IMG/VR virus record: IMGVR_UViG_2711768015_000005
Origin: a virus
Taxonomy: Duplodnaviria > Heunggongvirae > Uroviricota > Caudoviricetes
Reading direction: 5' to 3' (one strand)
Length of the DNA stretch: 41,351 nucleotides
Numbering within the stretch: the stretch's first letter is position 1; the number at the start of each line of letters is the position of its first letter. The notes beneath the pieces are model-generated. The model was given only the letters and a program-made list of their open reading frames with translations. It was not told the origin of the DNA and ran no database searches. The position numbers and the translations under genes are program-made. This document shows, in pieces, positions 1-41,351 of this stretch.

Positions 1-1
1 G

Positions 2-103: not shown

Positions 104-114
104 AAAAAGAACAA

Positions 115-10224: not shown

Positions 10225-10647
10225 ATGGCTGAAACACAGATGAGCATGTTTGGTGACAGCGAACAGCTGCACGCGCTGATTGACCGTCTGGATGATATTC
10301 CTGATGATGAGCTGAAAAAGAACTGGCCCGGCACGCTGCGGGACCTGGTTGATGTGATCAGTGCTGAACTGCACCGTCAGGGGATTGAACCTGCTCAGGC
10401 GGGAATGCTTGCCCGTAAGGTTGCAGCCGCACAGGCCGGGTACATGGGCGGGCGTGGTTATTATCTCCCGGTCGGTGAATCCCTTTTCACCGAACTGCGC
10501 AATAATGAAATTTTTTCCCGCTGGAGCCAGGGCGAAAAAATTGAAACCCTGCGCCGCCACTACCAGATGTCAGAGACGCAGATTTACTCCGTTATCCGCA
10601 ACCAGCGTCGCCTGCATCAGGAACGCACGCAGCCACGGCTTTTCTGA
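10225..10647 (+). CDS. mor: Mor/C-family transcriptional activator
   Basis: 140 aa; C-terminal HTH region YYLPVGESLFTELRNNEIFSRWSQGEKIETLRRHYQMSETQIYSVIRNQRR resembles Mu Mor/C; it is the only family member in the window and sits directly before the lysis gene. Confidence 0.8.
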   Translation: MAETQMSMFGDSEQLHALIDRLDDIPDDELKKNWPGTLRDLVDVISAELHRQGIEPAQAGMLARKVAAAQAGYMGGRGYYLPVGESLFTELRNNEIFSRWSQGEKIETLRRHYQMSETQIYSVIRNQRRLHQERTQPRLF

Positions 10648-10718
10648 TATTCCGCAAATCCTGCCCCCTTTTCCTCACGGTTACGCTGACTCAGAGAACA
10701 CCATGAGACAGCGTAACA

Positions 10719-18108: not shown

Positions 18109-18193
18109 CGGTCAGTGGCGGGGGTCGAACCCGCATACATGATCCACCCGGAGGCAGGCACCGACTTTACCAGTTAAGCGTACACTGACCGCC
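18109..18193. other. Structured intergenic element between head genes F and G
   Basis: 9-bp outer stem CGGTCAGTG/CACTGACCG enclosing hairpin GCGGG-GGTCGAA-CCCGC; on the minus strand the hairpin loop reads TTCGACC (T-loop-like); followed by TGTTTATTTTAT. Confidence 0.35.
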
Positions 18194-18703: not shown

Positions 18704-18880
18704 TGGTTTAAGGTATGCAAACGTATTACCTTACCCCCTTCAGGCGCGTGTCGTGATTTTCTAACCTGTATTTAACGGGCTTTAAAATCTGCGTGAAGCG
18801 CCTTTCTCATTCCCCCCCTGTCAGCACTTTCTGAAGTCCCGCAAAACCAGCCCCAAAAATACCCGGCTTATGCTGCCGGT

Positions 18881-22343: not shown

Positions 22344-22622
22344 ATGACAACCATTTTTATTAAACCTGCGCCGGGATGCCTGATCCGCGATCCCGACACG
22401 ATGACTCCGCTCTCTCAGGACGGGGAAGAGAAACCCTTCACTCCGTTCTGGTGCCGCCGTCTTAATGATGGCGACGTCATTGTGGTGGATAAAACGGCGG
22501 AGCCTGCCCCGGCTGCCACAACTGCTAATACCGGCGCGGCGGCAAAACCAGCGGGAGCGGTAGCAGAAAAAACTGCGGCGGTGGCTGAAAAAACCGCAGC
22601 ATCAGATAAGGGGACGTCCTGA
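22344..22622 (+). CDS. Small protein preceding the tail sheath gene
   Basis: 92 aa with Ala/Thr-rich C-terminus. Confidence 0.5.
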   Translation: MTTIFIKPAPGCLIRDPDTMTPLSQDGEEKPFTPFWCRRLNDGDVIVVDKTAEPAPAATTANTGAAAKPAGAVAEKTAAVAEKTAASDKGTS

Positions 22623-24124
22623 TGATTAACTTTGATTATATCGGCGATAACAATCGCATTCCGCTGGTACAGATTGAAATCAATAATTCAATGGCCGTGA
22701 CCGGCACTCCACCACAGCGTCAGGCGGTACTGTTGTTTGGTCAGGCTGCAATGAAAGACACTACCATTCAGGGGCGCGGTCAGCTTGATGTACCAGTACG
22801 TATTACCCGAGCTTCACAAGCAAGAGAACTCTGGGGGCGAGGTTCCATGATTGCACTGATGGTAGAGGAATTTATCGCCATTAACCCTGACACAGAGTTA
22901 TATGCCATTGCACAGGGGGCTGGAACAGGTCAGTCCAGGGCATGCGTGATGAATATCATTGGAACAGCATTGGCAGACGGGGTGTTAAGTGTTTACATCG
23001 GCGGTCGCCGTTACCTCCTGCCCGTCAGTAAGGGGAAAAAAGGTAAAGAGCTTGTGGAAGAGCTGGCTAAGGTCATTAACGCTGACACTGATGCGCCATT
23101 CACTGCTATCGCAGCTGAAGTCAGTGGTGATAATGCTGAAGGACTTAAAGGCAGCATGGGGGTTAACGCCCGCTTTATCGGTGAATGCTCAGCTCATGAT
23201 TTACGGGTGAACTATTATGACGGTGAAACTACACCGGCCGGTCTTACGCTGGAGCTCGTCGCGCCAACACAGAAGGCAACAAACCCCGATATCACCCGTA
23301 GCGTCTCAGGGATGGGGAATCGTCAGTACAACTACATCGTCATGCCCTATAAGGATGCGGCAAATCTCAAAATTCTGGCGGATGAACTGCTGAAACGCTG
23401 GGGACCGGTAAAAATGTCGGACGGTATGGTCTGGATGGCGCATACCGGCACCTTCGGTACGGCAACCAGTTTTGGTGAATCCCGTAATGACTTCCTGTTT
23501 ACCTGCACTTCTATTCCTAAAGCACCAGAGCCGGATTATGTCTGGGCTGCCTCCATTTGTGCGGTCTGTGCGCCCTCCCTGTCAACGGATCCGGCCCGAC
23601 CATTACAGACACTGGCGCTGCCTGCCCGTATGGCACCTGAAGCACCGGATCGTCTGACGCGGGAAGAGCGAAACAGCCTGCTTTATACCGGCATGTCCAC
23701 GGTGACCGTCGCGGCCGCGGATGTGGTGCAGATTGAACGTCAGGTGACGATGTACCGTCAGAATGCATACGGCGAAATCGATCCCAGCTATCTGGATGTG
23801 GAAACCATCTACACCCTGTCATATCTGCGTTATTCCCTGCGCACCTTTATCACGCAGCGTTTTCCGCGCCATAAACTGGCTGATGACGGGACGCCCGTTC
23901 GTGCCGGTCAGAATATCGTGACACCGGAGATCATGAAACTTCAGTTAATTTCGCTGGGGGAAGAATGGGTGGATCTGGGACTGGTCGAAAATCTGGACAC
24001 CTTTAAAAAGAATCTGCTCGTGGAGCGCAACACAAAAGACCGTAACCGTCTGGATGTGATGTGTACACCGGATCTGGTTAACCAGTTCCGCTTCATGGCC
24101 GCGCAGATCCGTTTCATTTTGTGA
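22622..24124 (+). CDS. Tail sheath protein (Mu L-like)
   Basis: 500 aa immediately upstream of the tube gene. Confidence 0.8.
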   Translation: MINFDYIGDNNRIPLVQIEINNSMAVTGTPPQRQAVLLFGQAAMKDTTIQGRGQLDVPVRITRASQARELWGRGSMIALMVEEFIAINPDTELYAIAQGAGTGQSRACVMNIIGTALADGVLSVYIGGRRYLLPVSKGKKGKELVEELAKVINADTDAPFTAIAAEVSGDNAEGLKGSMGVNARFIGECSAHDLRVNYYDGETTPAGLTLELVAPTQKATNPDITRSVSGMGNRQYNYIVMPYKDAANLKILADELLKRWGPVKMSDGMVWMAHTGTFGTATSFGESRNDFLFTCTSIPKAPEPDYVWAASICAVCAPSLSTDPARPLQTLALPARMAPEAPDRLTREERNSLLYTGMSTVTVAAADVVQIERQVTMYRQNAYGEIDPSYLDVETIYTLSYLRYSLRTFITQRFPRHKLADDGTPVRAGQNIVTPEIMKLQLISLGEEWVDLGLVENLDTFKKNLLVERNTKDRNRLDVMCTPDLVNQFRFMAAQIRFIL

Positions 24125-24132
24125 GGTAAGGC

Positions 24133-24498
24133 ATGAGCGGAAAACAGTATCAGGGCACGGCCACCATCCGTGTGAACGGGCAGGAGTACGACACCCTTGA
24201 GGGGGCCACGTTCTCCCCGTCCGGCTTTGAGCGTGAAGTGGTGAAAGGCGCGAAAGTTTACGGCTATCGCGAGAAACCCCGTGAGGCGACGCTGGACTGT
24301 AAATTCCCGGCGGGCGGAGAAGGTTCACCGGCTGCCGATGAAATCAACACCTGGACTGCGGTCACGATTGAGTTCGTGGCCGATACCGGTGAAGTCCACA
24401 TGATGACGAAGGCCTGGAGCAGTGAACCGGCCTCGCTTGACGGTGGTGGTGATATCTCCGCGAAGTTCGCCAGCGCCACCAGTACCCGTGTCCAGTAA
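24133..24498 (+). CDS. Tail tube protein (Mu M-like)
   Basis: 121 aa directly after the sheath gene. Confidence 0.7.
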   Translation: MSGKQYQGTATIRVNGQEYDTLEGATFSPSGFEREVVKGAKVYGYREKPREATLDCKFPAGGEGSPAADEINTWTAVTIEFVADTGEVHMMTKAWSSEPASLDGGGDISAKFASATSTRVQ

Positions 24499-24512
24499 TC
24501 AGGAAAAATGTA

Positions 24513-24989
24513 ATGAGCACACGTAAGAAAAAAACGGCGGTTTCTGACGAGGCCGTGATGGAGGCTATCCGGGATGCACTTGAAGACGGCGATCCCCGCA
24601 CCGCCGGGCTGGCTGAACAACTGGCGAACGGCTATGTGGATCTGCTCGACGGTCTGCCGTTCGGGGAATCCCGTGAATACCGCGTCACCTTCCGCGAACT
24701 GACGGCAAAAGACAGCATTGATGCGGAGAGCGAGGCCGAGCGTCTTATGGAAACCCGAAACGGTCCGGTTCTTGTGGCCTCACCGGCACTGCGCGGCATT
24801 GCGCTGCTGCGCCGTCAGATTGCCGCTGTCGGCCAGATTGAGGGGCCATTGTCTCCGCGTCAGATAGGACAGCTCAGCGAGCGCGATCTCTCCCGACTGA
24901 TGGCGGCAGTAAGCCTGCTTGATTCCGCGATGGCCGGAAAGCTGGTCGCTGAACGGGGGCGACCAGATGCAGTGCCGGGATCAGATTGA
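24513..24989 (+). CDS. Putative tail assembly chaperone (Mu gp41 position)
   Basis: 158 aa between tube and tape measure genes. Confidence 0.6.
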   Translation: MSTRKKKTAVSDEAVMEAIRDALEDGDPRTAGLAEQLANGYVDLLDGLPFGESREYRVTFRELTAKDSIDAESEAERLMETRNGPVLVASPALRGIALLRRQIAAVGQIEGPLSPRQIGQLSERDLSRLMAAVSLLDSAMAGKLVAERGRPDAVPGSD

Positions 24990-25113
24990 AGAAGCCGCAA
25001 TTGTGCTGGGGATGGTGACAAAAAGCGGCCCGGAGTGGGCGCTTAACCTCCCCTTATCGCAGCTTTACCGGCACTGCCGACAGACCGAAAAAATTCTCAG
25101 AACGAAGCAGTAA
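24967..25113 (+). CDS. Small ORF overlapping the chaperone 3' end, upstream of the tape measure gene
   Basis: 48 aa from ATG 24967 in a different frame, G-rich SD-like sequence upstream; the frame is open from 24919. Confidence 0.3.
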   Translation: MQCRDQIEEAAIVLGMVTKSGPEWALNLPLSQLYRHCRQTEKILRTKQ

Positions 25114-25116
25114 CCC

Positions 25117-27174
25117 ATGGCAAAAAACCTGAAAGCCTCCCTGATTGTCGATTTACTCGGCAATATTTCTGCCAAATCCCGCCAGTGGTCACAGGAGCTG
25201 GGGGCATTCTCCCGTTCCGGCAGGACGGGGCTGGGTGGTCTTGGAAATGCAGCACGTCGTGCCGGTCAGGAGACAGAACTTGTCGGCTCCCGTATGCAGC
25301 GAACGCTTGCCGGTGTTCGTGGCAGTATCCGCACGGTGACGTCAGATTTTGACCGCCTTCAGGGCAGCATTACCGGCACCATCGGGCGGATAAGCAACCT
25401 TTACGGGATGCTGGCGGGAGGGGCTGCGGTCTACGGGTTTAATAAAGCCTTTATCCGCCCGGCCGCAGAGATGGAGAACTATATTCTGCGTCTCAACGCC
25501 ATTAATCATGGCGATACGGCAAAAACGGAAGCAGTGAAAGCCTGGGCGGTACAGAACGCCAAAGACACCACCTGGGGGCTGGCGGGGGTTATGCAGGAAT
25601 ACGCCTCCAGTCGCGGGTTCGGTATGAGTGACAGGGAAGCCCGTCGCTTTATTACCATGCTTCAGGATCAGGGCGGCTATCACGGCTGGTCACTGTCAGA
25701 TGCACAGGGTGCGTCCCTGCAACTCAAACAGATGTTTGCCCGCCAGAGTATCCAGGCAGCGGACGCCAATATTCTGACCGGATACGGGATTAACGTTTAC
25801 CAGTTGCTGGCCGATAAGCTGGGTGTAAACCAGAAGATCATCCGTGAGAAAGGCGAGAAAGGAAAACTGGGACCGGACAGCATTCGCCTGTTATTTCAGG
25901 TGATGGCCGAACAGGCAAAAGGTGCCCAGAAAAACGCCATGAATTCCTGGACGGGAATGACGTCCATGATGGGCGATGTCTGGGACGGATTTGCCCGCGA
26001 GGTGATGGCAAAGGGACCGTTTGACAGCCTGAAAAAGAGCCTGAAAGGCTTTCTGGATTATGCTGATGCGGCACAGAAAAGCGGCTTACAGGATAAGCTG
26101 GCCACACAGACGGCCTCAGCCCTGAATCAGGGATTTGAGTATGCCAGAGACGCTGCGACCGGCTTTTACCGGGTCATTCAGAAAGTCAGGGAAACGCTTC
26201 AGGCACTGCGCGACGCCGGTTATGGCGATGCGCTGGATCGCATTGGTCAGGGTGCGCAGACCGCCGCAAAGTACCTGATGTATATGTATCTCGCCTCCCG
26301 TGCGCTGAAGGTGCTCAGGTTTGCGGGGACGGGGGCATTACGTCTCGGCGCAACCCCCTTACGCTATGGCATGGCGATGACCTCCGTGCTGACGTCGCCC
26401 TTCCGCAAACCGCAGACCACTGTACCGGGAACGCAGCCCGGACGCGCTGGCCGGTTCCTGAATTTCCTTACCGGGGTAAATCCGGCTGCCGTTCAGCCCG
26501 TGCTGGTCACCAATTGGCCTGCGGGTGGCCTGGCCTCAGGTGGCGGGGATGTGGTGGTCAGCGGTGACGGCAAAACCGTGCGCGGCCGTAAAAAACGCGG
26601 CCCCGGACGTGGACGGGGTGTCACGACCGTCGTGACTGCCGGTGAGCAACTGGCGGAGAGTGCCGGTAAACAGGGCTTCTTCGGTCGTATGATGAGCCGT
26701 GCCGGTGGTCTGCTAACGGCGGCCGGAAACCGCATGGGGCTGGGGCGTTTTGCCGGGCTGTTCCGTGGTGCCGGTCGGCTGGGTGGTGGTGCCCTGTGGG
26801 CCGGTGCCATGGCGGCTCCTGTACTGCTGGACAGCAGCGCCAGTGCAGCCGATAAAGCCGGTGCCGTGGGTTCCCTTGCCGGAAGTATCGCCGGTGGCGC
26901 GCTGGGGGCGGCTGCCGGTCCGGTCGGGGTTGCCATTGGTTCCACGGTGGGCAGCTATCTCGGTGATTATCTGGGGGGCTGGCTGACGCAGGCCTGGCAG
27001 AAACTGCGTGGCGGCAGTGACGAAAACGGCGGACAGGCCACCGCGAAAACCGCCGCACGGGTGGAGCTTGTTGCCCCTGAAGGCTGGCGGGCGCGCAGTA
27101 TTGATGTGGATGATACCGCACAGCATGGCCTGGATGTGAACGTCTGGAACGGAGGGAACTATGGCCTCTACTGA
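25117..27174 (+). CDS. Tail tape measure protein
   Basis: 685 aa with Gly/Ala-rich C-terminal third, between chaperone and baseplate genes. Confidence 0.8.
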   Translation: MAKNLKASLIVDLLGNISAKSRQWSQELGAFSRSGRTGLGGLGNAARRAGQETELVGSRMQRTLAGVRGSIRTVTSDFDRLQGSITGTIGRISNLYGMLAGGAAVYGFNKAFIRPAAEMENYILRLNAINHGDTAKTEAVKAWAVQNAKDTTWGLAGVMQEYASSRGFGMSDREARRFITMLQDQGGYHGWSLSDAQGASLQLKQMFARQSIQAADANILTGYGINVYQLLADKLGVNQKIIREKGEKGKLGPDSIRLLFQVMAEQAKGAQKNAMNSWTGMTSMMGDVWDGFAREVMAKGPFDSLKKSLKGFLDYADAAQKSGLQDKLATQTASALNQGFEYARDAATGFYRVIQKVRETLQALRDAGYGDALDRIGQGAQTAAKYLMYMYLASRALKVLRFAGTGALRLGATPLRYGMAMTSVLTSPFRKPQTTVPGTQPGRAGRFLNFLTGVNPAAVQPVLVTNWPAGGLASGGGDVVVSGDGKTVRGRKKRGPGRGRGVTTVVTAGEQLAESAGKQGFFGRMMSRAGGLLTAAGNRMGLGRFAGLFRGAGRLGGGALWAGAMAAPVLLDSSASAADKAGAVGSLAGSIAGGALGAAAGPVGVAIGSTVGSYLGDYLGGWLTQAWQKLRGGSDENGGQATAKTAARVELVAPEGWRARSIDVDDTAQHGLDVNVWNGGNYGLY

Positions 27175-28519
27175 CACGCCGGGGCGTGGCTCCTTTCGTG
27201 GCGTACCGTTCCTGGTTTATCAGGAGCAGCGGGAACGGGGCGGACGTAACATTGTGCGCCGTGAATACCCACTGCGTGAAAGCGGCGGTGCGGATGATCT
27301 GGGGCCAAAACTCCCGGAGTTCACATTCACGGTTCTGGTGACCGGAGACGATCTTCAGACACAGCGAAGCCGCCTGCGTGATGCGCTGCGTGCACCCGGT
27401 GCCGGTGAACTGATGCACCCGGATTACGGCACGTTAAACGTGCTGATAAACAGCTTTGAAAGCCGTTATAACGCCAGCGAGCAGGGAACGGTTGAGTTCA
27501 CGATCAACGTGATCCCCGCCAGTGACGATACCGCCCCTGCGGTGGCAGAAGATACGGCAGCTGCGCTGGAGCAGAAAAGCGGCTCAGCAATGAATCAGCT
27601 GTTTAACACGCTTTCAGACGGCTGGACGGTGATTTCAGACGGTCTGCATGATGTACAGGCCATGACCGACACCATCAGCGATAAGATTGATGCACTGGAG
27701 AATGCCGTTTCGGGGATGGGGATTGTGCAGGATATCAGTGCCTTTACGGCCAGTTTTACTGCCCTGAAAGGCAATGCCGCCGCCCTGATTAATGCGCCCC
27801 GTCGCATGGCTGAATCGCTGGCCGGAATGTTTGCCGTGCTGACCGGGCTGCCCGGCGATCCTTCCCTGTCTCTGACCGGAAAAGCCGGAACGCCGTCCGG
27901 CAGCCTGACCACAAACCGTGACAGCATGGCAGAGCAGGCCATGCCGCAGCTGTACCGCACACTTTCCTCCCTGCGTTACACCCTCAGCGAACAGGATGAT
28001 CCACAGCGCCTGATTGGCCTGACGCCTGCGGCACAGAAAAATATCCGTCTGCTGCGGAGCGTGATGCAGAGTGCAACCCTGGTGTCGCAGGCACAGACGC
28101 TCGGAAAACTGCTGGATCAGGTCATCCGGCAGAATACGACGCACGTTCAGGATACTGACCGTTCGGGCGGACTGGCCTGGCTGGAAAGTTCTGCTGATGT
28201 GCAGCGTATCAACCGGGATTTGAGCGATGCCATGGAACAACAGGTGCTGGATCTGTCCGCACAGGGCTATACCGGGACTGCCCTTGCATTACGTGATGCA
28301 GGGCTTGCGCTGACAGAAGATTTAACCACACGGAGCGTGCATCTTCCCGGTGCTTTTCAGGTCATGGTTCGCACCACCGAACCGGCACTGGTCACGCTGT
28401 ACCGTGCCACCGGCAACAGCAGTCGCTGGCAGTATTTTGTCCGCAGAAACAATATCCCCGATCCGGTTTTTGTTCCGGGTGGCCGCAGCGTGGAGGTGAT
28501 CAGTGAGCAGCAGGATTGA
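27161..28519 (+). CDS. DNA circularisation protein (Mu N-like)
   Basis: 452 aa; N-terminus GRGSFRGVPFLVYQEQRERGGRNIVRREYP fits the DNA_circ_N-type region; position after tape measure. Confidence 0.7.
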   Translation: MASTDTPGRGSFRGVPFLVYQEQRERGGRNIVRREYPLRESGGADDLGPKLPEFTFTVLVTGDDLQTQRSRLRDALRAPGAGELMHPDYGTLNVLINSFESRYNASEQGTVEFTINVIPASDDTAPAVAEDTAAALEQKSGSAMNQLFNTLSDGWTVISDGLHDVQAMTDTISDKIDALENAVSGMGIVQDISAFTASFTALKGNAAALINAPRRMAESLAGMFAVLTGLPGDPSLSLTGKAGTPSGSLTTNRDSMAEQAMPQLYRTLSSLRYTLSEQDDPQRLIGLTPAAQKNIRLLRSVMQSATLVSQAQTLGKLLDQVIRQNTTHVQDTDRSGGLAWLESSADVQRINRDLSDAMEQQVLDLSAQGYTGTALALRDAGLALTEDLTTRSVHLPGAFQVMVRTTEPALVTLYRATGNSSRWQYFVRRNNIPDPVFVPGGRSVEVISEQQD

Positions 28520-31743: not shown

Positions 31744-32294
31744 CCCTGACCCCGCATCAGCGCGCCCTGTTGCAGTTACTGCCTGACGGGCTGGCATGGG
31801 ACAAGCGTCCGTCATCCGTACTGGCATCATTATGTCTGGGCCTCAGTCATTCGACAGCGCGTGTATCCTGGACGGGTAAACAGCTGCTTGCCGAGCGTTT
31901 CCCTGACACGTCGCGCCTGCTGCTGGAAGACTGGGAGCGTTATCTCGGGCTTCCCGAGTGTGATATGGCCGGAGCCACCCTCACGGAGCGACAGCGTTAT
32001 GCCGGAAATAAATACCGGATGAAGCCCTCGCTGAACCGTGAATTTTATATCCGGTTTGCGGCGGAGTTTGGTTATCAGATTGACATTCAGCCCTCACCGG
32101 ATTCGCAGTGGGTCAGTATTGTCACGATTAACAGTGAAACCGGCTACCGGAATATGAATGTGCTGGATGATATTCTCACGCCGCTGCGTATTTATGAAGG
32201 CGGTGCGCTGGAATGTATTCTGAACCGTTATAAGCCTGCATGGCAGACGTTTATTTACGTTTATGCAAACAGCCATGAAGAGGAGACTATTTAA
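31734..32294 (+). CDS. Tail protein (Mu gp48-like, DUF2313-type)
   Basis: 186 aa directly upstream of the tail fibre gene. Confidence 0.65.
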
Positions 32295-33175
32295 TGTTTC
32301 ATGTTGATAATAATTCCGGCGTGGCGAATATGCCTGCGCTGGCACCGGCGCAGAGTAATACCACCACCTGGTTTACCGAAGGTGACGGACAAAAAGGTAT
32401 CAGCTGGATTGGTCAGGACTGGCTGAATATTCTCCAGGCCGAACTGCTGAATATTCTGGCTGAAGCCAGTATTCAGCCGGATAAGGCGCAGTTAAACCAG
32501 CTTACGCTGTCCATTAAAGCCATTATCGCTGCGAATGCCTTTTCCCGGAAAAATAACCTGAAAGAAATTGCTGATGCCGGTGCGGAGGCCCAGCGTCTGG
32601 CCCGTGGTTATCTTGGTCTGGGGACGCTTGCCACAAAAAACAGTCTTGGTCCCGCTGACGTTAATGCCCTGGCGAAGGATCAGAATCTCGCCGACCTGGA
32701 GAATAAGGGAACCGCCCGTAATAATCTGGATGTTTACAGCAAAAGCGAAGGTGATAACCGTTACCTGCGCAGGGAGCAGAACGGCGCAGACATTCCGGAT
32801 AAAGGGGCTTTTATCGATAACGTCGGTTTACGGGAAACGGTAAACAGGGCGGCGAATGCCCTGCCATCGGACGGCACCGCCGTTGCCGCGAACAGGCTGG
32901 CAAATGCCCACACAATTAATGGTGTTCCCTTTGACGGGACGCAGGATATCACTATCTCATCAGGAACAGTAACCGCCATAAGACTGGGGTCGGTGACCGC
33001 ACATATGCCCGGAACATGGGAAAGCTGGGATCTGAATCTGGGGGGCGGCAATGTTCTTACCGGAATTAAAGTACAGGATGTCGGTAAGAATACGGCAGAT
33101 AACGTCGGCGGCGTGTATTACCGGCCGTTGCAGTATCTGTTAAATGGAGCATGGGTGACGGCTGCAAGTATATAA
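32294..33175 (+). CDS. Tail fibre protein S: constant N-terminal part plus currently joined variable C-terminus
   Basis: 293 aa; crosses the left gix-like site at 32810-32835; residues after GLRETVNR... differ from the inverted cassette. Confidence 0.8.
32810..32835 (+). promoter_or_regulatory. Left gix/hix-like invertase crossover site inside the tail fibre gene
   Basis: TTATCGATAACG-TC-GGTTTACGGGAA; resembles Gin/Hin recombination sites (AAAACC..GGTTT half-sites around a central dinucleotide). Confidence 0.65.
32825..32892 (+). repeat. Left inverted repeat of the invertible tail-fibre segment (68 bp)
   Basis: Reverse complement of 34073-34139 with one mismatch. Confidence 0.85.
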
Positions 33176-33184
33176 TGATATTCA

Positions 33185-33208
33185 GAAGGCCTTCCGGCCT
33201 TCTTTATT
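33185..33208. terminator. Hairpin terminator between convergent S and tail-fibre assembly genes
   Basis: GAAGGCC-ttcc-GGCCTTC followed by TTTATT. Confidence 0.6.
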
Positions 33209-33728
33209 ACTGTGGCTGCTCAGGCCATTTAATGGCGTTAAATTCAGCTTCTGTTTTAATGGCGGGTAGTTCCATTTTCTTCACCTGACTGATGTATGCC
33301 ATCCATTGGGTAAGTGCTGCTCTGTCTTCATCGCTGATGGTGCCCAGTTGTAGCTCCGTTCTCCAGTCATTAATTTTTTCATATGCCTGATTAAGATATG
33401 ACTGGCGCATTGCTTCCAGTTTTCTTGCGTAGTTAACCGGAATACGGGAGATTATGCCATTATCAAACTTCCAGTTTCCTGAAATATCCGTGCCTTCAGG
33501 GAGTTCATCGACCTCAACCACAGAAAACCCCGCAGGATACAGCGCCGAGGCGTCCTGTGATATTGAGCAGATAACGCCGCTGTCAGGTGTTATGCAAAGT
33601 TTATATTTTTTGGTGAATAATGGCAGGGATTCGTAGAAATCCTTACCATCTTCACTCTGGAAATACTGAACATTATTACCATATGGCATATTTTCAGGAT
33701 AATAACGGGTTATATTTTTTAGTTCCAT
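33207..33728 (-). CDS. Tail fibre assembly protein (Tfa/U-like) in the inverted cassette
   Basis: 173 aa minus-strand ORF directly downstream (on the minus strand) of the alternative fibre C-terminus. Confidence 0.75.
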   Translation of the reverse strand: MELKNITRYYPENMPYGNNVQYFQSEDGKDFYESLPLFTKKYKLCITPDSGVICSISQDASALYPAGFSVVEVDELPEGTDISGNWKFDNGIISRIPVNYARKLEAMRQSYLNQAYEKINDWRTELQLGTISDEDRAALTQWMAYISQVKKMELPAIKTEAEFNAIKWPEQPQ

Positions 33729-33779
33729 AAAATCCTCCTGGAAATAAATCTGTTTTAAAATATATTATTTACTGACTAT

Positions 33780-34145
33780 TTATAACTGAGATACCGTAAT
33801 CCATGTACCTCCGACTAATTTTTGCAGGGGTCTGAATGCTATAAAATCGTTTGAAGCATCAACTTTACTGTCAATCTGCAGGCCTGCCATAACATTACCG
33901 TACGCAGAGTAATATGCCCCACCGTACATTACCTGCCTGTTCTCTGCTCCCAGCCTGATATCCTGGATATATCGGGAATCCGCATCCTGCTGTGTTATAC
34001 CAGAAGTGATGTTTATGTCCTGCGTCCCGTCAAAGGGAACCCCATTAATATTTCTTGGGGTGGCGAGTCTATTCGCGGCAACGGCGGTGCCGTCCGATGG
34101 CAGAGCATTCGCCGCCCTGTTTACCGTTTCCCGTAAACCGAGGTT
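33780..34145 (-). other. Alternative tail-fibre variable C-terminal cassette, inverted and without its own start codon
   Basis: Minus-strand frame open from 34145 encodes [49 protein letters not shown]...GGTWITVSQL*; first ~22 aa identical to S at the repeat, then divergent. Confidence 0.75.
34073..34139 (-). repeat. Right inverted repeat of the invertible segment
   Basis: Reverse complement matches 32825-32892. Confidence 0.85.
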
Positions 34146-34153
34146 TTCAGGAA
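34128..34153 (-). promoter_or_regulatory. Right gix/hix-like crossover site
   Basis: Minus strand reads TTCCTGAAAACC-TC-GGTTTACGGGAA. Confidence 0.65.
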
Positions 34154-34218
34154 AGCCAGGATTAACTCTGTTTTATTCCTCATGCGACAATTCCGGCTTT
34201 TTATAATAAGGAAATCGT

Positions 34219-34847
34219 ATGCTGATTGGGTATATCAGGGTGTCAACAAATGACCAGAATACGGCGCTACAAAGAAATGNNNNNNNNNNNNNNNNNNNNN
34301 NNNNNNNNNNNNNNNNNNNNNNNNNNNNNNNNNNNNNNNNNNNNNNNNNNNNNNNNNGCTGTTTTTCGAAGACAGAATAAGCGGTAAGACAAGGGAGCGT
34401 CCCGGACTTAAACGCGCATTAAAGCGACTCCGGCCAGGGGATACCCTGCTGGTCTGGAAACTGGATCGCCTTGGACGCAGTATGCAGCACCTTGTCCTTT
34501 TAACAGAAGAACTCCGGCAACGCGGCGTTAACTTCCGCAGCATTACGGACAATATTGATACATCCACTCCCATGGGACGTTTCTTTTTCCATATAATGGG
34601 CGCGCTGGCGGAAATGGAGCGGGAACTCATTATTGAACGTACACGCGCGGGTCTTGCTGCTGCCCGTGCTCAGGGGCGTCATGGCGGCAGACCTCAGAAA
34701 CTGACAGAGAAAGAGCGGGAGCAAATCGCCCGTTTGCTGGCTAATGGCGAGTCCCGTAAACAAATCGCACTGATATTTGATATTGGCCTTTCCACCCTTT
34801 ATCGTTATTTTCCTGCCTCACCAGCTCCGTCACCAAAAGTACCGTGA
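34219..34847 (+). CDS. gin: Gin/Hin/Pin/Cin-family serine DNA invertase, interrupted by an assembly gap (Ns at 34280-34357)
   Basis: MLIGYIRVSTNDQNTALQRN...[gap]...LFFEDRISGKTRERPGLKRALKRLRPGDTLLVWKLDRLGRSMQHL...GRFFFHIMGALAEMERELIIERT closely parallels Mu Gin; the N-run changes the reading frame, so its length is not the real gap. Confidence 0.9.
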
Positions 34848-34932
34848 CGCTTTTTTGAATTTCCGCAAAACACATATTTTTCAGCGGTCGCTATTCTGAC
34901 TCTGTTTAATTCAGAAACAGGCAGAAAAGACG

Positions 34933-36987
34933 ATGTCAGACTCCAAGTGGAAAATGCTCTCCGCCATGCCCGGAGAGTTTTCAGTCAAGGTTGCCGGTGG
35001 CACGGTGGCATTTATTGAAAGCCCTTTCCGCCCTTCGGGTAATAAAGGGGGGATCACCTTCGCAGACTGCGTGATCCGCTTCAGCACGAAAGAGCCATTA
35101 TGGGTAATGCCGGTATCCGGTAATCCCAGTGCAGAAATCACCAGTTCAGGCGTGACTGGCATCATTCCAATCACATCTGACGTGGCCGGAACGCTCACGC
35201 CCTCCGACTGGAATGCACCGGATAACGCCGGGCCTTCCGGTAGCACGAATGGCAGCAGTTCAGAGCCGGAATATTACTTTGTTGTCATTCTCGCGGGTCA
35301 GTCAAATGGCATGGCCTACGGCGAGGGGCTGCCGTTACCGGATTCGTTTGACCGCCCGGACCCACGCATTAAGCAACTGGCACGCCGCAGTACGGTAACG
35401 CCCAACGGTACGTCGTGTACATACAACGACATCATTCCGGCAGACCACTGCCTGCATGATGTTCAGGATATGAGCGGGATAAACCACCCGAAAGCTGATC
35501 TGGCAAAAGGCCAGTACGGGACTGTCGGTCAGGGGTTGCATATTGCCAAAAAACTGCTTCCCTATATCCCACAGAATGCCGGGATACTTCTGGTGCCCTG
35601 TTGTCGTGGCGGGTCAGCATTCACCACTGGAGCCGACGGCTCATTCAGTGAGGCCAGCGGTGCTTCCGCTGATTCTTCACGCTGGGGGGCCGGTAAACCT
35701 CTGTATCAGGACCTGGTAAGCCGCACCAAAGTCGCGCTGGCGAAAAACCCGAAAAACAAACTTCTGGCTGTGGTCTGGATGCAGGGAGAGGCAGACCTTG
35801 CCTCAGGAAGCCAGCAGCATAATAGTTTATTCACGGCCATGGTTCAGCAGTTCAGAACTGACCTGGCTCCGCTTGCTGCGCAGTGCGTGAGTGGAAATGC
35901 CACCACGGTGCCGTGGATTTGCGGTGATACCACGTATTACTGGAAAAACGCTGGCACCGATAAATATGAGGCAGTATACGGTGGCTACAAAGGCAAGGAA
36001 GCACAGAAAATTTTCTTTGTACCGTTCCTGACGGATGAGAATGGACAGAGCACGCCAACGAATGCTCCGGCGGAAGACCCGGATATTGTGGCTGTCGGGT
36101 ATTACGGTGCAGCATCCCGAACCCAGGGCAGTTTTGTTTCGACACAGCGTGACAGCCATTTCAGCTCATGGGCACGCAGGGGCGTCATTTCAGACCGTCT
36201 GGCCTCAGCTATTATGCTCCATGCAGGGCGCACGGCTGAACTGATGCGTGGGCAGACCGTGACACCACCGGATGAGAAGCCGTCACCTGATACACCATCA
36301 AAACCGTCCACGCCACCCGCAGACACCACGACGATGAGTACGCTATTTGCTTACCGGGCATCTGAGTCTGAAGGACGGTTGACACCACAGGGTTGGGCTG
36401 CCGGAGGTGGCAAGGCTCAAATCGTGGATGATGCCGGAGCCAGCGGGGGTAAGGCAATGAAACTGACCAAGGAAACAGGAAGAGCCCCCTGGTACCTTGA
36501 GCATGATGCTGGTAATGGTGCGGACCTGCTGGGTAAAGGTGGTCTTGTCAGTTGTCGTTTTAAACTCGATGGCGCGCTTACGGCTAATCAGTACGCACTG
36601 GCGCTGTACTGGCCGGTTTCTGCCCTGCCGCAAGGGGTTACTCTGGAAGGAAATGCCGGTCATAACCTGCTGGCATCGTTCTACGTACAGAGCGATGCCA
36701 CAGACCTTAACGTGATGTATCACAAAGGAAACACGGCGCAGAACACGAAGCTGGGGTCATTCGGCGCATTTAATAACGAATGGCATACGCTGGGCTTCCG
36801 TTTTGCCGGTAACAACAGTATTGAGGTGACGCCGGTCATTGATGGTAAGGACGGGACACCATTCATGCTGTCGCAGTCTCCGGTCGGCACGTTTACGGCA
36901 GACAAGTTGCGCGTGACCGATATCACTAAAAATGCGACTTACCCGGTACTGATTGACAGTATCGTGGTGGAAGTGAATAACGCGTAA
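34933..36987 (+). CDS. Cargo protein: SGNH/sialate-O-acetylesterase-like domain, Pro/Thr-rich linker, lectin-like C-terminal domain
   Basis: 684 aa; esterase-type GQSN motif in VVILAGQSNGMAYGEG; linker PPDEKPSPDTPSKPSTPPADTTT; ~210-aa C-terminal domain; no signal peptide; located where Mu carries only com-mom. Confidence 0.55.
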   Translation: MSDSKWKMLSAMPGEFSVKVAGGTVAFIESPFRPSGNKGGITFADCVIRFSTKEPLWVMPVSGNPSAEITSSGVTGIIPITSDVAGTLTPSDWNAPDNAGPSGSTNGSSSEPEYYFVVILAGQSNGMAYGEGLPLPDSFDRPDPRIKQLARRSTVTPNGTSCTYNDIIPADHCLHDVQDMSGINHPKADLAKGQYGTVGQGLHIAKKLLPYIPQNAGILLVPCCRGGSAFTTGADGSFSEASGASADSSRWGAGKPLYQDLVSRTKVALAKNPKNKLLAVVWMQGEADLASGSQQHNSLFTAMVQQFRTDLAPLAAQCVSGNATTVPWICGDTTYYWKNAGTDKYEAVYGGYKGKEAQKIFFVPFLTDENGQSTPTNAPAEDPDIVAVGYYGAASRTQGSFVSTQRDSHFSSWARRGVISDRLASAIMLHAGRTAELMRGQTVTPPDEKPSPDTPSKPSTPPADTTTMSTLFAYRASESEGRLTPQGWAAGGGKAQIVDDAGASGGKAMKLTKETGRAPWYLEHDAGNGADLLGKGGLVSCRFKLDGALTANQYALALYWPVSALPQGVTLEGNAGHNLLASFYVQSDATDLNVMYHKGNTAQNTKLGSFGAFNNEWHTLGFRFAGNNSIEVTPVIDGKDGTPFMLSQSPVGTFTADKLRVTDITKNATYPVLIDSIVVEVNNA

Positions 36988-37771: not shown

Positions 37772-38065
37772 TTAGTCCGATTCACGCTTTTGTAGAATCG
37801 TTCCCAGAATGCTATACAGCTCATTAGCCTGTTGCTCCATCATTGAGACGGAGGCTATACGGTGCAAAGTGATTTCAGGAGGTGGCACACCTCCATCTTC
37901 TTGCTGTGGAGGAAAAACATAAGATTTAATAAAAAAGTTGAAGCATATGAACTCTCCCGCACTCGAACTGTATTTGCAGGCATCTGAATAATCGGAAAAA
38001 TAATCATTATAGATTTCCGCATTTTCAATCATTTTTCGATTTCTCGTCGTTACATGATTGTCCAT
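37772..38065 (-). CDS. Hypothetical protein, divergent from com-mom, in an AT-rich segment
   Basis: 97 aa minus-strand ORF with AAGAGG SD 6 nt upstream of ATG. Confidence 0.45.
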   Translation of the reverse strand: MDNHVTTRNRKMIENAEIYNDYFSDYSDACKYSSSAGEFICFNFFIKSYVFPPQQEDGGVPPPEITLHRIASVSMMEQQANELYSILGTILQKRESD

Positions 38066-38249
38066 AGCAGCCTCTTACGCTGGCAATTAACCAATTGACT
38101 TCTATAAATTAGTTGATTTGTTTGCTTTGCGGTATTCAAATGTACAATCATTCAGCACTTATGCGTTACAGCACCGTTTAAAATTAGTGATCAAACTCAT
38201 AAATTTTCGCTAATGACATTTCGTGTTATTTGTTGTATCAATTAAATAA

Positions 38250-39249: not shown

Positions 39250-39345
39250 CGCCGATTTAGTATCAAATAAGTTGCGTATCGGCGTTTTTCAGCGGTATCA
39301 AATGAAATGCAAATCGGTATCAAAAAAATCGCCGCGCTATAGACA
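39250..39345. promoter_or_regulatory. Right prophage end (attR-like) with three inverted copies of the end repeat
   Basis: TAGTATCAAAT (39259-39269), CGGTATCAAAT (39293-39303), TCGGTATCAAA (39323-39333), inverse of the left-end sites. Confidence 0.6.
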
Positions 39346-39371
39346 GCCTAAGCGGCTGCTGACCTCCCTGA

Positions 39372-39890
39372 CCATGCTGTAAATCTCTTTATCCTGGTTG
39401 TCACAGAATAAGCCCGGTAAAATACGGGCTTATGAACGACATCTCTTCTGACGACATCTTCCTGCTGAAACAGCGCCTTGCCGAACGTCAGTTGAAAACG
39501 AAACCGCTGCTGAAATCCCTGGAAAGCTGGCTGCGTGAAAAGATGAAAACCCTGTCGCGACACTCAGAACTGGCGAAAGCGTTCGCATACGCCCTGAACC
39601 AGTGGCCGGCGCTGACGTACTATGCAGATGATGGCTGGGCTGAGGCGGACAATAACATCGCTGAAAATGCGTTGCGGATGGTCAGTCTGGGCCGCAAAAA
39701 CTACCTGTTCTTCGGTTCGGATCATGGAGGAGAGCGGGGAGCGCTGCTGTACAGCCTGATCGGGACGTGCAAACTGAACGGAGTGGAGCCAGAAAGCTAC
39801 CTCCGCTATGTCCTTGACGTCATAGCCGACTGGCCGATAAACCGGGTCGGCGAACTGCTCCCCTGGCGCGTAGCACTGCCGACTGAATAA
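39372..39890 (+). pseudogene. tnpC: 3' fragment of IS66-family transposase tnpC (C-terminal ~150-170 aa only)
   Basis: ...WPALTYYADDGWAEADNNIAENALRMVSLGRKNYLFFGSDHGGERGALLYSLIGTCKLNGVEPESYLRYVLDVIADWPINRVGELLPWR matches the conserved IS66 TnpC C-terminus; in-frame stop at 39369-39371 and no N-terminal region. Confidence 0.85.
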
Positions 39891-39930
39891 CACATTCCCG
39901 TCAATACGGTTCTTGCTGCACGCTTACGGT
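39891..39930. mobile_element. Right terminal region of the IS66-family element
   Basis: ACGGTTCTTGCTGCACGCTTAC, the reverse complement of a GTAAGCG-type IS66 terminus, directly after the tnpC stop. Confidence 0.55.
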
Positions 39931-39943
39931 AAACACCCCGGAA

Positions 39944-41116
39944 GTGGTGATGCACACTGTTGCTGATGTGATGACAGGAAACGATGGTGAATACTGTTTC
40001 CATGCGCGGACTGGAAAATATGGTGTGTATCTGAAACCGGGCTGGCACAACGAGTACAACGTTGGCGACATTGCTGTATACGACGACTCAAAGCCCGGCA
40101 CGCTGAATGACTTTCTGATTGCTCCTGATGAGGGCGACCTGAAACCGGATGTCGTCAAACGCTTTGAGGAAATGGTGGCGCAGGCGCAGCAGAGCGCCGG
40201 GGCCGCAGCCGGAAACGCACAGCAGACGGCGCAGGATGTGGCGGCAGCCGCAGGTTATGCCCGCGCAGCAGAGCAGGCCAAAAATGACATTGATGCTGCG
40301 CTGACCGGCACTCTGAAAACGGCTAACCATCTGTCTGAAATCGCAGCAGCAGGCGAAAAGGCACAACAGAAGTCCCGGGATAATCTGGGGCTGAAAAGTG
40401 CGGCCACGATGGAAGCACAGAGCGACATTTACGACCGGACAAAAGGCCGTCTGGCGATACCCGGCGCATTCGGCTTTGGGTGTGCTTTTCTGCCTGAAGA
40501 TGTTATCCGTTTTGACACTAAGAGTGATTTCCTGGCCTGGGTAAGGAATGCGCTGCCAGGTGAATATTCCGTTGCTGGCCCCTACGACATCATCATACCC
40601 GACACACGGTTTGAAGGGGTGCTCAGCATCCGGTGGACTGATGCACGCCCTGAGACAACAGAACCGAGGTACAGAGCCAAATCCCTTACTTTTTACGGCA
40701 TTAACGGCCCCATTTATCACACCCGCTACTGCTACTGGCCCATATCCAGACTGACTGGCTGGGTGAAAATAAATATAACCACAGAAGATATTATTTACAG
40801 AATCGTGGCGAGCTCTGTCTGCAACAGATGGGGAGACCCTGACATTGGCGGGCTGATTATTGCTGCGTACCAGGGAGAAGCTGACGGTGATAAAGTCATC
40901 AGACTTGTCAGGGGGCAGTCATACAGAGGCTCACGACTGGGACCGGTGGGGATTTCAGTGCCCAGTACTCCCACCGGAACGTATATAGCATCCCCACAAT
41001 TTTTCATTACGGGATGTTCAGAGCATTCATTACCGGGGTCATATAGCGCCCTGTCCGGGGTGCCGGATGCTCATGTCTCTGGCGCAATGCCCGGGCTTTT
41101 TATTCGCACATCGTGA
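39944..41116 (+). CDS. Tail-fibre protein C-terminal region from a different prophage, 5' part cut off by the IS66 end
   Basis: 390-aa ORF with Ala/Gln-rich coiled segment then Gly-rich C-terminal domain, followed by a tail-fibre-assembly-like gene; the frame is open back to the IS66 boundary with no credible start. Confidence 0.5.
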   Translation: MVMHTVADVMTGNDGEYCFHARTGKYGVYLKPGWHNEYNVGDIAVYDDSKPGTLNDFLIAPDEGDLKPDVVKRFEEMVAQAQQSAGAAAGNAQQTAQDVAAAAGYARAAEQAKNDIDAALTGTLKTANHLSEIAAAGEKAQQKSRDNLGLKSAATMEAQSDIYDRTKGRLAIPGAFGFGCAFLPEDVIRFDTKSDFLAWVRNALPGEYSVAGPYDIIIPDTRFEGVLSIRWTDARPETTEPRYRAKSLTFYGINGPIYHTRYCYWPISRLTGWVKINITTEDIIYRIVASSVCNRWGDPDIGGLIIAAYQGEADGDKVIRLVRGQSYRGSRLGPVGISVPSTPTGTYIASPQFFITGCSEHSLPGSYSALSGVPDAHVSGAMPGLFIRTS

Positions 41117-41126
41117 GGAATGCACC

Positions 41127-41351
41127 GTGGAAATTAAAAAAATCATTAATCCCCGTTATACCGAAAGTGGCGCAGTAGACTGTGACGTTTTTTTTGACGA
41201 CAGGGACCAGGCAGTCCCCTACACAGCCACCGCTGATGATGTCGCACCGACGGGTCAGCGAATCTGGCAGGAACTGCAAAGTGGCAAATGGGGTGAGATA
41301 GCCCCATTCACTGTGACACCAGAAATGCTGGAAGCGGCCAGAGAGGCCAGA
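41127..41351 (+). CDS. Putative tail fibre assembly protein, 5' part, running off the window end
   Basis: GTG 41127: VEIKKIINPRYTESGAVDCDVFFDDRDQAVPYTATADDVAPTGQRIWQELQSGKWGEIAPFTVTPEMLEAAR; no stop before window end. Confidence 0.45.
   Translation, partial: MEIKKIINPRYTESGAVDCDVFFDDRDQAVPYTATADDVAPTGQRIWQELQSGKWGEIAPFTVTPEMLEAAREAR

What the first reader, a model, noticed from the sequence alone, without database searches (positions are those of the whole stretch)
32810..34847. Compact Gin-type tail-fibre inversion switch with asymmetric content and an assembly gap in the invertase gene
Two gix/hix-like sites (32810-32835 and, inverted, 34128-34153) and adjoining 68-bp inverted repeats flank a ~1.3 kb segment. 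In the current orientation the fibre gene ends with one variable C-terminus and is followed only by a terminator. The inverted cassette carries an alternative C-terminus (33780-34145, no start codon) followed by a tail-fibre assembly gene (33207-33728). So only one of the two orientations supplies a co-oriented assembly chaperone, unlike the symmetric Mu G segment. The adjacent gin gene contains a run of Ns (34280-34357) whose length breaks the frame, marking an assembly gap.
Basis: partly seen in the sequence, partly recalled or inferred. Interest (0 to 1): 0.6.

Follow-up and report, generated by a model that had tools for sequence, protein, structure and literature searches.

The report
Mu-like prophage tail-fibre inversion switch
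This is a working DNA-flipping switch in a Mu-like E. coli prophage that swaps the tip of the phage's tail fibre to change which bacteria it can infect; it is a known kind of switch, unusual only in carrying one fibre-folding helper gene instead of two.

Summary
Two 26-bp gix sites (32811-32836 and 34128-34153), followed inward by about 150 bp of inverted repeat, bracket a 1,319-bp segment inside the tail-fibre gene of an intact-looking Mu-like prophage (window 653-39341).

- **Invertase and the N run.** The adjacent gene is a close Gin homologue. The 78 Ns stand in for 22 real bases. Near-identical complete E. coli genomes have an intact 190-aa invertase there.
- **Inversion is real.** Strains FORC_029 and NCCP 13983 are identical over 8.5 kb except for an exact inversion bounded by the two gix core dinucleotides. 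Both orientations recur in other genomes.
- **The asymmetry is real and conserved.** Every relative of this prophage family that I could score has a compact segment with a single tfa gene. Mu/SfMu-type loci have two. The slot not co-transcribed with tfa always holds a "class A" tip. Elsewhere, class A-like tips always have a co-oriented tfa directly downstream.
- **Open point.** How the class A tip is chaperoned when tfa is antisense is unresolved. I favour a shared, independently expressed Tfa, but I found no promoter for it.

The family corresponds to the Sp18-like prophages, and Sp18's invertible host-specificity region has already been noted in print. Verdict: an ordinary and functional switch that is a modest architectural variant. 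Interest 0.3.

The parts
32294..33175 (+). Tail-fibre gene S in its current form (293 aa): constant part Sc fused to the class A1 tip
   Evidence: ORF. Residues 1-191 align to Mu tail fibre protein S (5YVQ_A E 9e-46; 8JU3_A E 9e-47), including the crossover motif GL(R/Q)ETVNRA. Full-length match to phrog_1833, tail fiber protein.
32811..32836 (.). Left gix-type recombination site, TTATCGATAACG-TC-GGTTTACGGGAA, with core TC at 32823-32824
   Evidence: The left boundary of the inversion observed between FORC_029 and NCCP 13983 falls within 32823-32842.
32823..34141 (.). Invertible segment, 1,319 bp counted core to core
   Evidence: This is the largest interval whose reverse complement converts NCCP 13983 into FORC_029, with 0 mismatches elsewhere in 8,473 nt.
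32816..32964 (.). Left inverted-repeat arm, encoding the shared start of both tips (...[23 protein letters not shown]...[12 protein letters not shown])
32837..33175 (+). Class A1 variable tip, motif [26 protein letters not shown]. It is expressed in the current orientation and has no co-oriented tfa.
33184..33203 (.). GC-rich hairpin between the two convergent stop codons. It is terminator-like and followed by a T-run on the plus strand.
   Evidence: The fold has dG -21.9 kcal/mol in a 66-nt context, z -2.3.
33207..33728 (-). The only tail-fibre assembly (Tfa) gene, 173 aa
   Evidence: PF02413 at 4.8e-19. Mu protein U, 5YVQ_B, at 4e-16. phrog_136 at 5e-56.
33780..34127 (-). Class B1 alternative tip. 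It has no start codon and is fused to Sc only after inversion.
   Evidence: The flipped form is annotated as a 296-aa protein in NCCP 13983.
34000..34148 (.). Right inverted-repeat arm
34128..34153 (.). Right gix-type site, TTCCCGTAAACC-GA-GGTTTTCAGGAA, with core GA at 34140-34141
34219..34847 (+). gin-type serine DNA invertase gene, interrupted in the window by the N run. The real gene is 573 nt and encodes 190 aa.
   Evidence: Resolvase plus HTH_7 domains. Intact in L001. Mu Gin 4M6F/3UJ3 at E about 1e-88. phrog_125, DNA invertase.
34280..34357 (.). Run of 78 N that replaces 22 real bases. It is an artefact, not biology.

Best explanation
This is the host-range switch of a Mu-like transposable prophage of E. 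coli, of the kind represented by Sp18 of O157 Sakai.

**What the switch does (shown).** A Gin-family serine invertase, encoded just outside the segment, recombines two inverted 26-bp gix sites. One site lies inside the tail-fibre gene at the boundary between the constant and variable parts. The other lies 1.3 kb downstream. Inversion replaces the last 110 or so codons of the fibre. The current orientation makes Sc plus a class A1 tip and ends at a hairpin terminator. The flipped orientation makes Sc plus a class B1 tip and co-transcribes the single tfa gene. The sites, the invertase identity, exact inversion between natural near-isogenic genomes, both fibre reading frames, and the family-wide conservation of the one-tfa layout are all shown here.

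**What is inferred from Mu, not tested here.** The two tips are assumed to confer different receptor specificity. Fis and an enhancer in the 5' part of gin are assumed to assist inversion.

**How the single Tfa works (inferred, about 0.45).** I think one Tfa serves both tips and is made in both orientations. In the flipped state it would come from the late operon. In the current state it would come from an unidentified promoter on the minus strand.
For: **Invertase.**
- It matches Mu Gin structures 4M6F and 3UJ3 at E about 1e-88 over residues 1-184.
- It is intact in near-identical genomes.

**Recombination sites.**
- The two sites are unique in the window, inverted, share the core dinucleotide, and match SfMu gix.

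**Inversion seen in nature.**
- FORC_029 and NCCP 13983 show 0 mismatches in 8,473 nt apart from an exact inversion of at most 32823-34141.
- 18 complete genomes have the window's arrangement and 6 have the flipped junction.
- Among IMG/VR contigs that also carry the invertase gene, 12 are in the window's orientation and 4 are flipped.

**Fibre and prophage identity.**
- The fibre N-terminus is the Mu S constant part, and tfa is a Mu U homologue.
- The prophage is Mu-like: transposase, MuB-like ATPase, Gam, Mor, Com and Mom.
- All tail ORFs in the window are intact.

**One-tfa layout.**
- It is conserved across three or more cassette combinations.

**Support for a shared Tfa.**
- In IMG/VR, 58 class A-like tip loci have a co-oriented tfa 0-18 nt after the stop. 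The other 15 scorable loci belong to this family and have the convergent tfa. None lacks an adjacent tfa.
- The nearest phage relative of this Tfa's N-terminal half is Rac-SA53 tail2, at 64-69% identity. That gene follows a tip 65% identical to class A2.
- Similar Tfa alleles sit next to B1, B2 and B3 tips and to both A1 and A2 tips.
- tfa is an intact 173-codon ORF in all 10 'locked' relatives that lost the B tip and the invertase. These relatives express only an A tip. They sit at three or more different chromosomal insertion sites.

**Literature.**
Against: **No promoter for tfa in the current orientation.**
- No sigma-70-like site was found on the minus strand between 33729 and 34300.
- The phage's own late-promoter motif has exact copies before the lysozyme, protease and esterase genes. 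It is absent upstream of tfa on the minus strand.
- The spacers upstream of tfa differ between subfamilies and show no obvious shared promoter.

**The selection argument is weak.**
- Purifying selection on tfa in the locked lineage (dN/dS 0.10-0.23) cannot be assigned to the locked state. The deletion junction is much less diverged than tfa, so tfa alleles were probably swapped in by recombination.

**Other gaps.**
- The Fis enhancer could not be confirmed. Candidate sites are spaced 46 bp apart, and the N run hides part of the region.
- No read-level data exist for this particular strain.
Confidence: 0.85

Rival explanations
1. The class A tip folds and trimerises without any Tfa. Under this view tfa serves only the B tip. 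The asymmetry then simply pairs a chaperone-dependent cassette with a chaperone-independent one.
For: - The slot not linked to tfa always holds a class A tip, which ends directly at a terminator.
- No promoter for tfa is detectable in that orientation.
- A Pantoea relative (L013) also has an asymmetric segment. Its unlinked slot holds a collar-type tip with no tfa.
Against: - All 58 class A-like tips found outside this family have a co-oriented tfa 0-18 nt downstream, and none lacks one.
- The same holds for the annotated phages P2 variant, P1 variant, SfMu S', POP15 and Rac-SA53.
- tfa remains intact in 10 of 10 locked relatives that can express only an A tip.
- The closest Tfa relative is partnered with a class A2-like tip.
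Confidence: 0.2
2. The current orientation is a non-productive or helper-dependent state. Without co-transcribed Tfa the A-tip fibres would misfold. The switch would then act as fibre ON/OFF, or would depend on a Tfa supplied by another resident prophage.
For: - There is no co-oriented tfa and no detectable promoter.
- E. coli genomes carry related tfa genes in other prophages, for example Rac-SA53 tail2, which is 64-69% identical in the N-terminal half.
Against: - This orientation is the commoner one in natural lysogens: 18 against 6 complete genomes, and 12 against 4 IMG/VR contigs.
- Relatives locked in this orientation occur at three or more different insertion sites that disrupt different genes (flgL, citF region, xdhA). 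That is what Mu-type transposition after infection would produce.
- The A tip ORF is intact and conserved in every locus examined.
Confidence: 0.12
3. The segment is a decaying relic of a symmetric Mu-type G segment that lost one tfa by deletion and no longer works. Alternatively, the arrangement is an assembly artefact tied to the N run.
For: - An N run lies 130 bp from the right repeat.
- Deletion derivatives of the region do exist.
Against: - The segment, both gix sites and the first 61 nt of gin lie on one uninterrupted stretch to the left of the N run.
- The same sequence, at 100% identity, is present in gap-free complete genomes.
- All ORFs are intact, and the layout is conserved across diverged cassettes.
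- An exact inversion is seen between near-identical genomes.
Confidence: 0.03

Closest known systems
Bacteriophage Mu G segment with Gin (and the near-identical SfMu)
   Same: - Both sit in a Mu-like transposable phage.
- The invertase is a close homologue of Mu Gin (4M6F, E 2.5e-88).
- The 26-bp gix sites share the same half-site and the same core.
- The crossover falls at the same point of the fibre gene (GLQETVNRA).
- gin lies just outside the segment, with com and mom further downstream.
- Tfa is a homologue of Mu U.
   Different: - The segment is 1.3 kb here, against about 3.0 kb in SfMu.
- The variable tips are about 113-116 aa here. Mu S is 504 aa in total, with about 190 aa constant.
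- There is one tfa instead of two (U and U').
- The two tips are separated by a terminator and a convergent tfa.
- An extra late gene, a SASA esterase with a DUF6645 domain, follows gin.
Sp18 of E. coli O157:H7 Sakai and related Mu-like prophages of STEC
   Same: - It appears to be the same prophage family. O157:H7 and other STEC genomes match the fibre constant part at about 90% identity.
- The STEC relative I inspected (strain 2014C-3011) shows the same one-tfa layout.
[quoted passage not shown] It also reports detecting packaged Sp18 DNA.
   Different: - The STEC relative I inspected carries other cassettes (A2 and B2 tips, and a tfa only 61% identical).
- I did not fetch Sp18 itself.
- The papers I read do not describe the single-tfa layout.
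P1 C segment/Cin, e14 P segment/Pin, p15B Min
   Same: These use the same invertase family and the same logic of swapping fibre C-termini. This is from my own knowledge. A P1 variant shows an invertase next to convergent fibre and tfa pairs.
   Different: Those segments carry a tfa for each alternative tip. The P1 variant has two, in opposite orientation. They sit in other phage backbones.
Carotovoricin Er tail-fibre inversion (Pectobacterium tailocin)
   Same: It is a compact invertible fragment inside a fibre gene that switches killing range. This is recalled from Nguyen et al. 2001, which I saw only as a citation in PMC4272514.
   Different: It is a tailocin, not a Mu-like phage. I could not read the paper, so its chaperone content is unchecked.

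Membership tests
Gin/Hin/Cin/Pin serine DNA invertase systems | Small serine recombinase with an N-terminal catalytic domain and a C-terminal HTH | tested here: met
   PF00239 at 3e-41 and PF02796 at 5e-15. The full 190-aa protein from the near-identical L001 matches Mu Gin 4M6F at E 2.5e-88, including the RVSTNDQ serine motif.
Gin/Hin/Cin/Pin serine DNA invertase systems | Two 26-bp sites in inverted orientation, each made of 12-bp half-sites around an identical 2-bp core | tested here: met
   Sites at 32811-32836 and 34128-34153. The inner half-sites are identical (GGTTTACGGGAA) and the core is TC/GA. They closely match the SfMu gix sites.
Gin/Hin/Cin/Pin serine DNA invertase systems | The segment is found in both orientations, with exchange at the core | tested here: met
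   Exact inversion between FORC_029 and NCCP 13983, with boundaries inside 32823-32842 and 34122-34141. Both junctions recur in other genomes. This is evidence from public genomes, not from reads of this strain.
Gin/Hin/Cin/Pin serine DNA invertase systems | Cis-acting enhancer with two Fis sites, usually in the 5' part of the invertase gene | tested here: inconclusive
   Loose Fis-like 15-mers are centred at +55, +101 and +147 of gin, spaced 46 bp apart. The 48-bp spacing I recall for Hin and Gin is not matched. The N run covers gin nt 62-83 in the window.
Mu G-segment type tail-fibre host-range switch | Crossover inside the fibre gene at the junction of the constant and variable parts, giving two alternative C-termini | tested here: met
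   Alignment to Mu S residues 1-191 ends at GLRETVNRA. The two reading frames give fibres of 293 aa and 296 aa.
Mu G-segment type tail-fibre host-range switch | Each alternative tip is followed by its own co-oriented assembly gene (S-U and S'-U') | tested here: not met
   There is one Caudo_TAP gene in the segment and none elsewhere in the prophage. Mu/SfMu-type loci in the same survey have two.
Mu G-segment type tail-fibre host-range switch | The two orientations confer different host ranges | not testable with these tools
   The A1 and B1 tips differ in sequence after the shared repeat. Receptor specificity needs adsorption assays.
Tail fibre assembly proteins (Caudo_TAP, Mu U / P2 G / lambda Tfa) | Sequence membership, and position next to the fibre tip it serves | tested here: met
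   PF02413 at 69 bits against a cut-off of 22.1. 5YVQ_B at 4e-16. The gene is adjacent to both tips: 51 nt after B1 and co-oriented, and 31 nt from A1 and convergent.

The most novel reading that the evidence does not exclude
The single Tfa is a generalist chaperone, and by sequence it looks like the natural partner of the convergent class A tip. It would be made in both orientations from an unrecognised promoter that does not depend on the late operon.

If so, this prophage family has reduced the Mu G segment to two tips and one shared chaperone. That would make it a natural system for testing how specific Tfa-fibre recognition really is. The mirror-image reading is also not excluded: a tip family that is otherwise always paired with a Tfa has become Tfa-independent here.
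Probability: 0.4. Interest if true: 0.45.

Novelty: new variant of a known kind. Interest (0 to 1): 0.3.

Why it matters
Tail-fibre inversion switches are textbook material, and this one adds no new principle.

Its value is practical. The one-chaperone layout is conserved across hundreds of E. coli genomes, including STEC. It raises a concrete and testable question: how is a fibre tip that normally comes with its own Tfa assembled when the only tfa gene points the wrong way? The answer bears on how promiscuous Tfa chaperones are. That matters when phage or tailocin host range is re-engineered by swapping tips.

The case also shows that an N run next to an invertible segment should not be read as gene damage.

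Tried and rejected
**Promoter for tfa on the minus strand.**
- A sigma-70 consensus scan of 32200-35000 found none on that strand.
- The hits in relatives L003 and L004 were within chance expectation.

**Late-promoter motifs.**
- The C-binding pattern I recalled for Mu (TTAT-N6-ATAA) gave one irrelevant hit.
- A motif I derived from the phage's own late promoters (TGAWDTYCCGCAAAW) has exact copies before the lysozyme, protease and esterase genes. It has none upstream of tfa on the minus strand.

**dN/dS of tfa in the locked lineage.**
- I used this to ask whether tfa is under selection while antisense. The values are low, 0.10-0.23.
- The result is uninformative. The deletion junction is far less diverged than tfa, which implies allele exchange by recombination.

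**Covariation of tfa alleles with tip types.**
- There is none. Window-like tfa alleles occur with A1 and A2 tips and with B1, B2 and B3 tips.

**Database searches that gave little.**
- The search for related loci in genome contigs with the Sc alignment returned a single locus.
- The search for homologous proteins with the 69-aa tip returned only 4 near-identical fragments.
- Rfam found nothing in 32000-35200.

**Literature.**
- I could not read North et al. 2019 or Nguyen et al. 2001.
- I could not establish whether the EPEC E2348/69 'Mu prophage', shown to be phase-variable in PMC4272514, belongs to this family.

**Considered and rejected.**
- Misassembly of the segment. It lies on one gap-free stretch and is identical in complete genomes.
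- A second tfa elsewhere in the prophage. None is annotated or found by tblastn.
Full report
**What is in the sequence**

The region lies near the right end of a Mu-like prophage. The window aligns from 653 to 39341 with a prophage of E. coli JE86-ST05, at 98.9-99.9% identity. That prophage is annotated with a Mu transposase, a MuB-like ATPase, Gam, Mor, Mu-type head and tail genes, Com and Mom. In the window, all large head and tail ORFs are open.

The fibre gene at 32294-33175 encodes 293 aa. Residues 1-191 align with the constant part of Mu tail fibre protein S (5YVQ_A, E 9e-46). The alignment ends at the motif GLRETVNRA, which is where the Mu G segment begins.

The inverted repeats are real. 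Arms 32816-32901 and 34063-34148 are 86 nt and 93% complementary. They continue into 32915-32964 and 34000-34049, which are 50 nt and 84% complementary. At the outer ends sit two 26-bp sites:
- left, 32811-32836: TTATCGATAACG-TC-GGTTTACGGGAA
- right, 34128-34153: TTCCCGTAAACC-GA-GGTTTTCAGGAA

Their 14-mer TTCCCGTAAACCGA occurs exactly twice in the window, against 0.22 expected. Both sites match the gix sites of SfMu.

Between the sites, in order, lie:
- the current tip, followed by a hairpin terminator at 33184-33203;
- one tfa gene on the minus strand, 33207-33728 (PF02413, and a homologue of Mu U);
- a second tip on the minus strand with no start codon, 33780-34127.

Flipping 32823-34141 in silico gives a 296-aa fibre followed 51 nt later by tfa.

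**The invertase and the N run**

The gene at 34219-34847 has Resolvase and HTH_7 domains. The window's only N run, 34280-34357 (78 N), replaces 22 bases that are present in JE86-ST05. With those bases the protein is an intact 190-aa close homologue of Mu Gin (4M6F, E 2.5e-88). The run is therefore an artefact of arbitrary length.

The first 43 nt of the gene are 95% identical to an Erwinia phage sequence. My inference is that the contig broke in sequence shared among several invertase genes. The segment, both gix sites and the first 61 nt of gin lie to the left of the gap on uninterrupted sequence. The orientation seen in the window is therefore not a scaffolding choice.

**Evidence that the segment inverts**

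- E. coli FORC_029 and NCCP 13983 are identical at every one of 8,473 compared positions outside one interval. Reverse-complementing that interval makes them identical inside it too.
- The boundaries of that interval fall within 32823-32842 and 34122-34141. The largest possible interval is bounded by the two core dinucleotides.
- Among complete E. coli genomes, 18 carry the window's arrangement including gin, and 6 carry the flipped junction. Some strains hold two copies in opposite states.
- Among IMG/VR contigs that also carry the invertase gene, 12 are in the window's state and 4 are flipped.
- About 17 of 73 such contigs end within about 150 nt of the crossover site. This is what a repeat-flanked, possibly mixed, segment would do to short-read assemblies, but it is not proof of a mixed population.

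**The asymmetry is a family trait**

In a survey of loci encoding relatives of the constant part, two architectures separate cleanly.

| Feature | Relatives 63-100% identical to this Sc | Mu/SfMu-type relatives (46-48% identical) |
|---|---|---|
| Segment | compact | about 3 kb |
| tfa genes | one | two, convergent |
| Start of the invertase gene (gin) after the end of the constant part (Sc) | 1.4-1.5 kb | 2.7-3.3 kb |
| SASA/DUF6645 esterase gene downstream | present | absent |

Typing the tips shows a rule. The slot that is not co-transcribed with tfa always holds a class A tip. This is either A1 (116 aa) or A2 (126 aa), with the motif ADN[IV]GGVYYRP. The tfa-linked slot holds one of three unrelated-looking types, B1, B2 or B3.

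A derivative lineage has a deletion running from the 3' end of the B tip to the last 67 nt of gin. It is fixed with an A tip and an antisense tfa. It occurs in 7 IMG/VR contigs and in several complete genomes. In three of those genomes the prophage disrupts different host loci: flgL/laf in strain M3, the citF region in JE86-ST02, and xdhA in CI5.

**How the A tip might be chaperoned**

Class A-like tips are not chaperone-free elsewhere.
- In 74 IMG/VR loci scored with a class A alignment, 73 had enough downstream sequence. Of these, 58 have a co-oriented tfa starting 0-18 nt after the stop. The other 15 belong to this family and have the convergent tfa. None lacks an adjacent tfa.
- Annotated phages show the same pattern: a P2 variant, a P1 variant, SfMu S', POP15 and Rac-SA53.
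- The closest phage relative of this Tfa's N-terminal half is Rac-SA53 tail2, at 64-69% identity. That gene follows a tip 65% identical to A2.
- From my memory of the abstract of North et al. 2019, the N-terminal half of Tfa is the fibre-binding part.
- Nearly the same Tfa follows an A-like tip in one P2 variant and a B1-like tip in phage pro147.
- tfa is intact in 10 of 10 locked loci.

Together these points favour one generalist Tfa that serves both tips.

The weak point is expression. I found no sigma-70-like site on the minus strand upstream of tfa. The phage's own late-promoter motif is also absent there. That motif is TGAWDTYCCGCAAAW with a -10 element 22-23 nt downstream. It has exact copies before the lysozyme, protease and esterase genes. 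The low dN/dS of tfa among locked loci (0.10-0.23) cannot be credited to the locked state, because the deletion junction is far less diverged than tfa. I therefore put the shared-Tfa model at about 0.45, Tfa independence of the A tip at about 0.2, and a non-productive or helper-dependent A state at about 0.12.

**Comparison with what is known, and verdict**

In mechanism and ancestry this is a Gin/gix switch of the Mu G-segment type. The site structure, the invertase, the crossover position and observed inversion all pass the membership test. The one defining feature of the Mu, P1 and e14 segments that it fails is having an assembly gene for each tip.

The prophage family appears to be the one that includes Sp18 of O157 Sakai. 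STEC genomes match at about 90% identity, and one STEC relative I inspected (strain 2014C-3011) has the same layout. I did not fetch Sp18 itself. [quoted passage not shown] PMC4272514 reports experimental phase variation in a Mu prophage of EPEC, but I could not link that prophage to this family.

The element is functional-looking and widespread, and it is a modest architectural variant of a textbook system. The unanswered question about the chaperone gives it some experimental interest, but not much surprise. Interest 0.3.

Noticed in passing
window 34856-34870 and 34933-36987; also 10645-10659 and 18832-18846: The motif TGAWDTYCCGCAAAW, with a -10-like hexamer 22-23 nt downstream, has exact copies in front of three genes: the lysozyme gene, the head protease gene, and the 684-aa SASA esterase/DUF6645 gene just after gin. 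The esterase therefore looks like a late gene and may be a virion protein. It accompanies every compact one-tfa locus I could score downstream and is absent from Mu/SfMu-type loci.
   Followed up: partly
L003 (M3), L006 (JE86-ST02), L089 (CI5); IMG/VR loci L019-L021, L029, L037, L039, L042: A 'locked' lineage has a deletion from the 3' end of the B tip to the last 67 nt of gin. It keeps an A tip facing an intact antisense tfa. It is found at three or more different chromosomal insertion sites that disrupt different genes.
   Followed up: yes
L013 7001-9900 (Candidatus Pantoea persica): Another asymmetric invertible segment of about 1.57 kb, with repeats at 7626-7652 and 9195-9221. The current 576-aa fibre ORF ends in a Tfa-like sequence. 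The inverted alternative is a 149-aa collar-like tip with no tfa of its own. A gin homologue follows.
   Followed up: partly
IMG/VR loci L016, L022, L027, L030, L035, L036, L040, L043, L044, L049, L054, L055, L059, L062, L064, L070, L072: About 17 of 73 viral contigs encoding this fibre's constant part end within about 150 nt of the crossover site. Draft assemblies seem to break habitually at the invertible segment.
   Followed up: no
window 38126-38132 (minus strand) and minus-strand ORF 37772-38032: The late-promoter core CCGCAAA, in the context TTGAATACCGCAAAG, lies on the minus strand upstream of a small minus-strand ORF. That ORF sits between the DUF826 gene and com, and is annotated as WP_000571916.1 in relatives. 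It may be a late gene transcribed against the flow of its neighbours.
   Followed up: no
L008 (JE86-ST05 copy) versus window 22622-28519: The near-identical prophage in JE86-ST05 is annotated with frameshifts in the sheath, tube, tape-measure and DNA-circularisation genes. The window has full-length ORFs for all four. Either that copy is decaying or its assembly contains indel errors.
   Followed up: no
window about 18105-18184: PGAP annotates a 'tRNA-OTHER' at the corresponding place in JE86-ST05, between the minor head protein gene and the virion morphogenesis gene. ARAGORN finds no tRNA anywhere in the window.
   Followed up: partly
window 34006-34206 (plus strand): A 66-aa ORF runs antisense to the B tip and across the right gix site. 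Equivalent ORFs are annotated as 'hypothetical protein' in several RefSeq genomes. It is most likely a spurious call created by the repeat.
   Followed up: no
window 1-652 and 39342-41351: The flanks do not match those of the JE86-ST05 prophage, which sits in an rhs element. The same phage is therefore inserted at a different chromosomal site in the window's host, as expected for a transposable phage.
   Followed up: no
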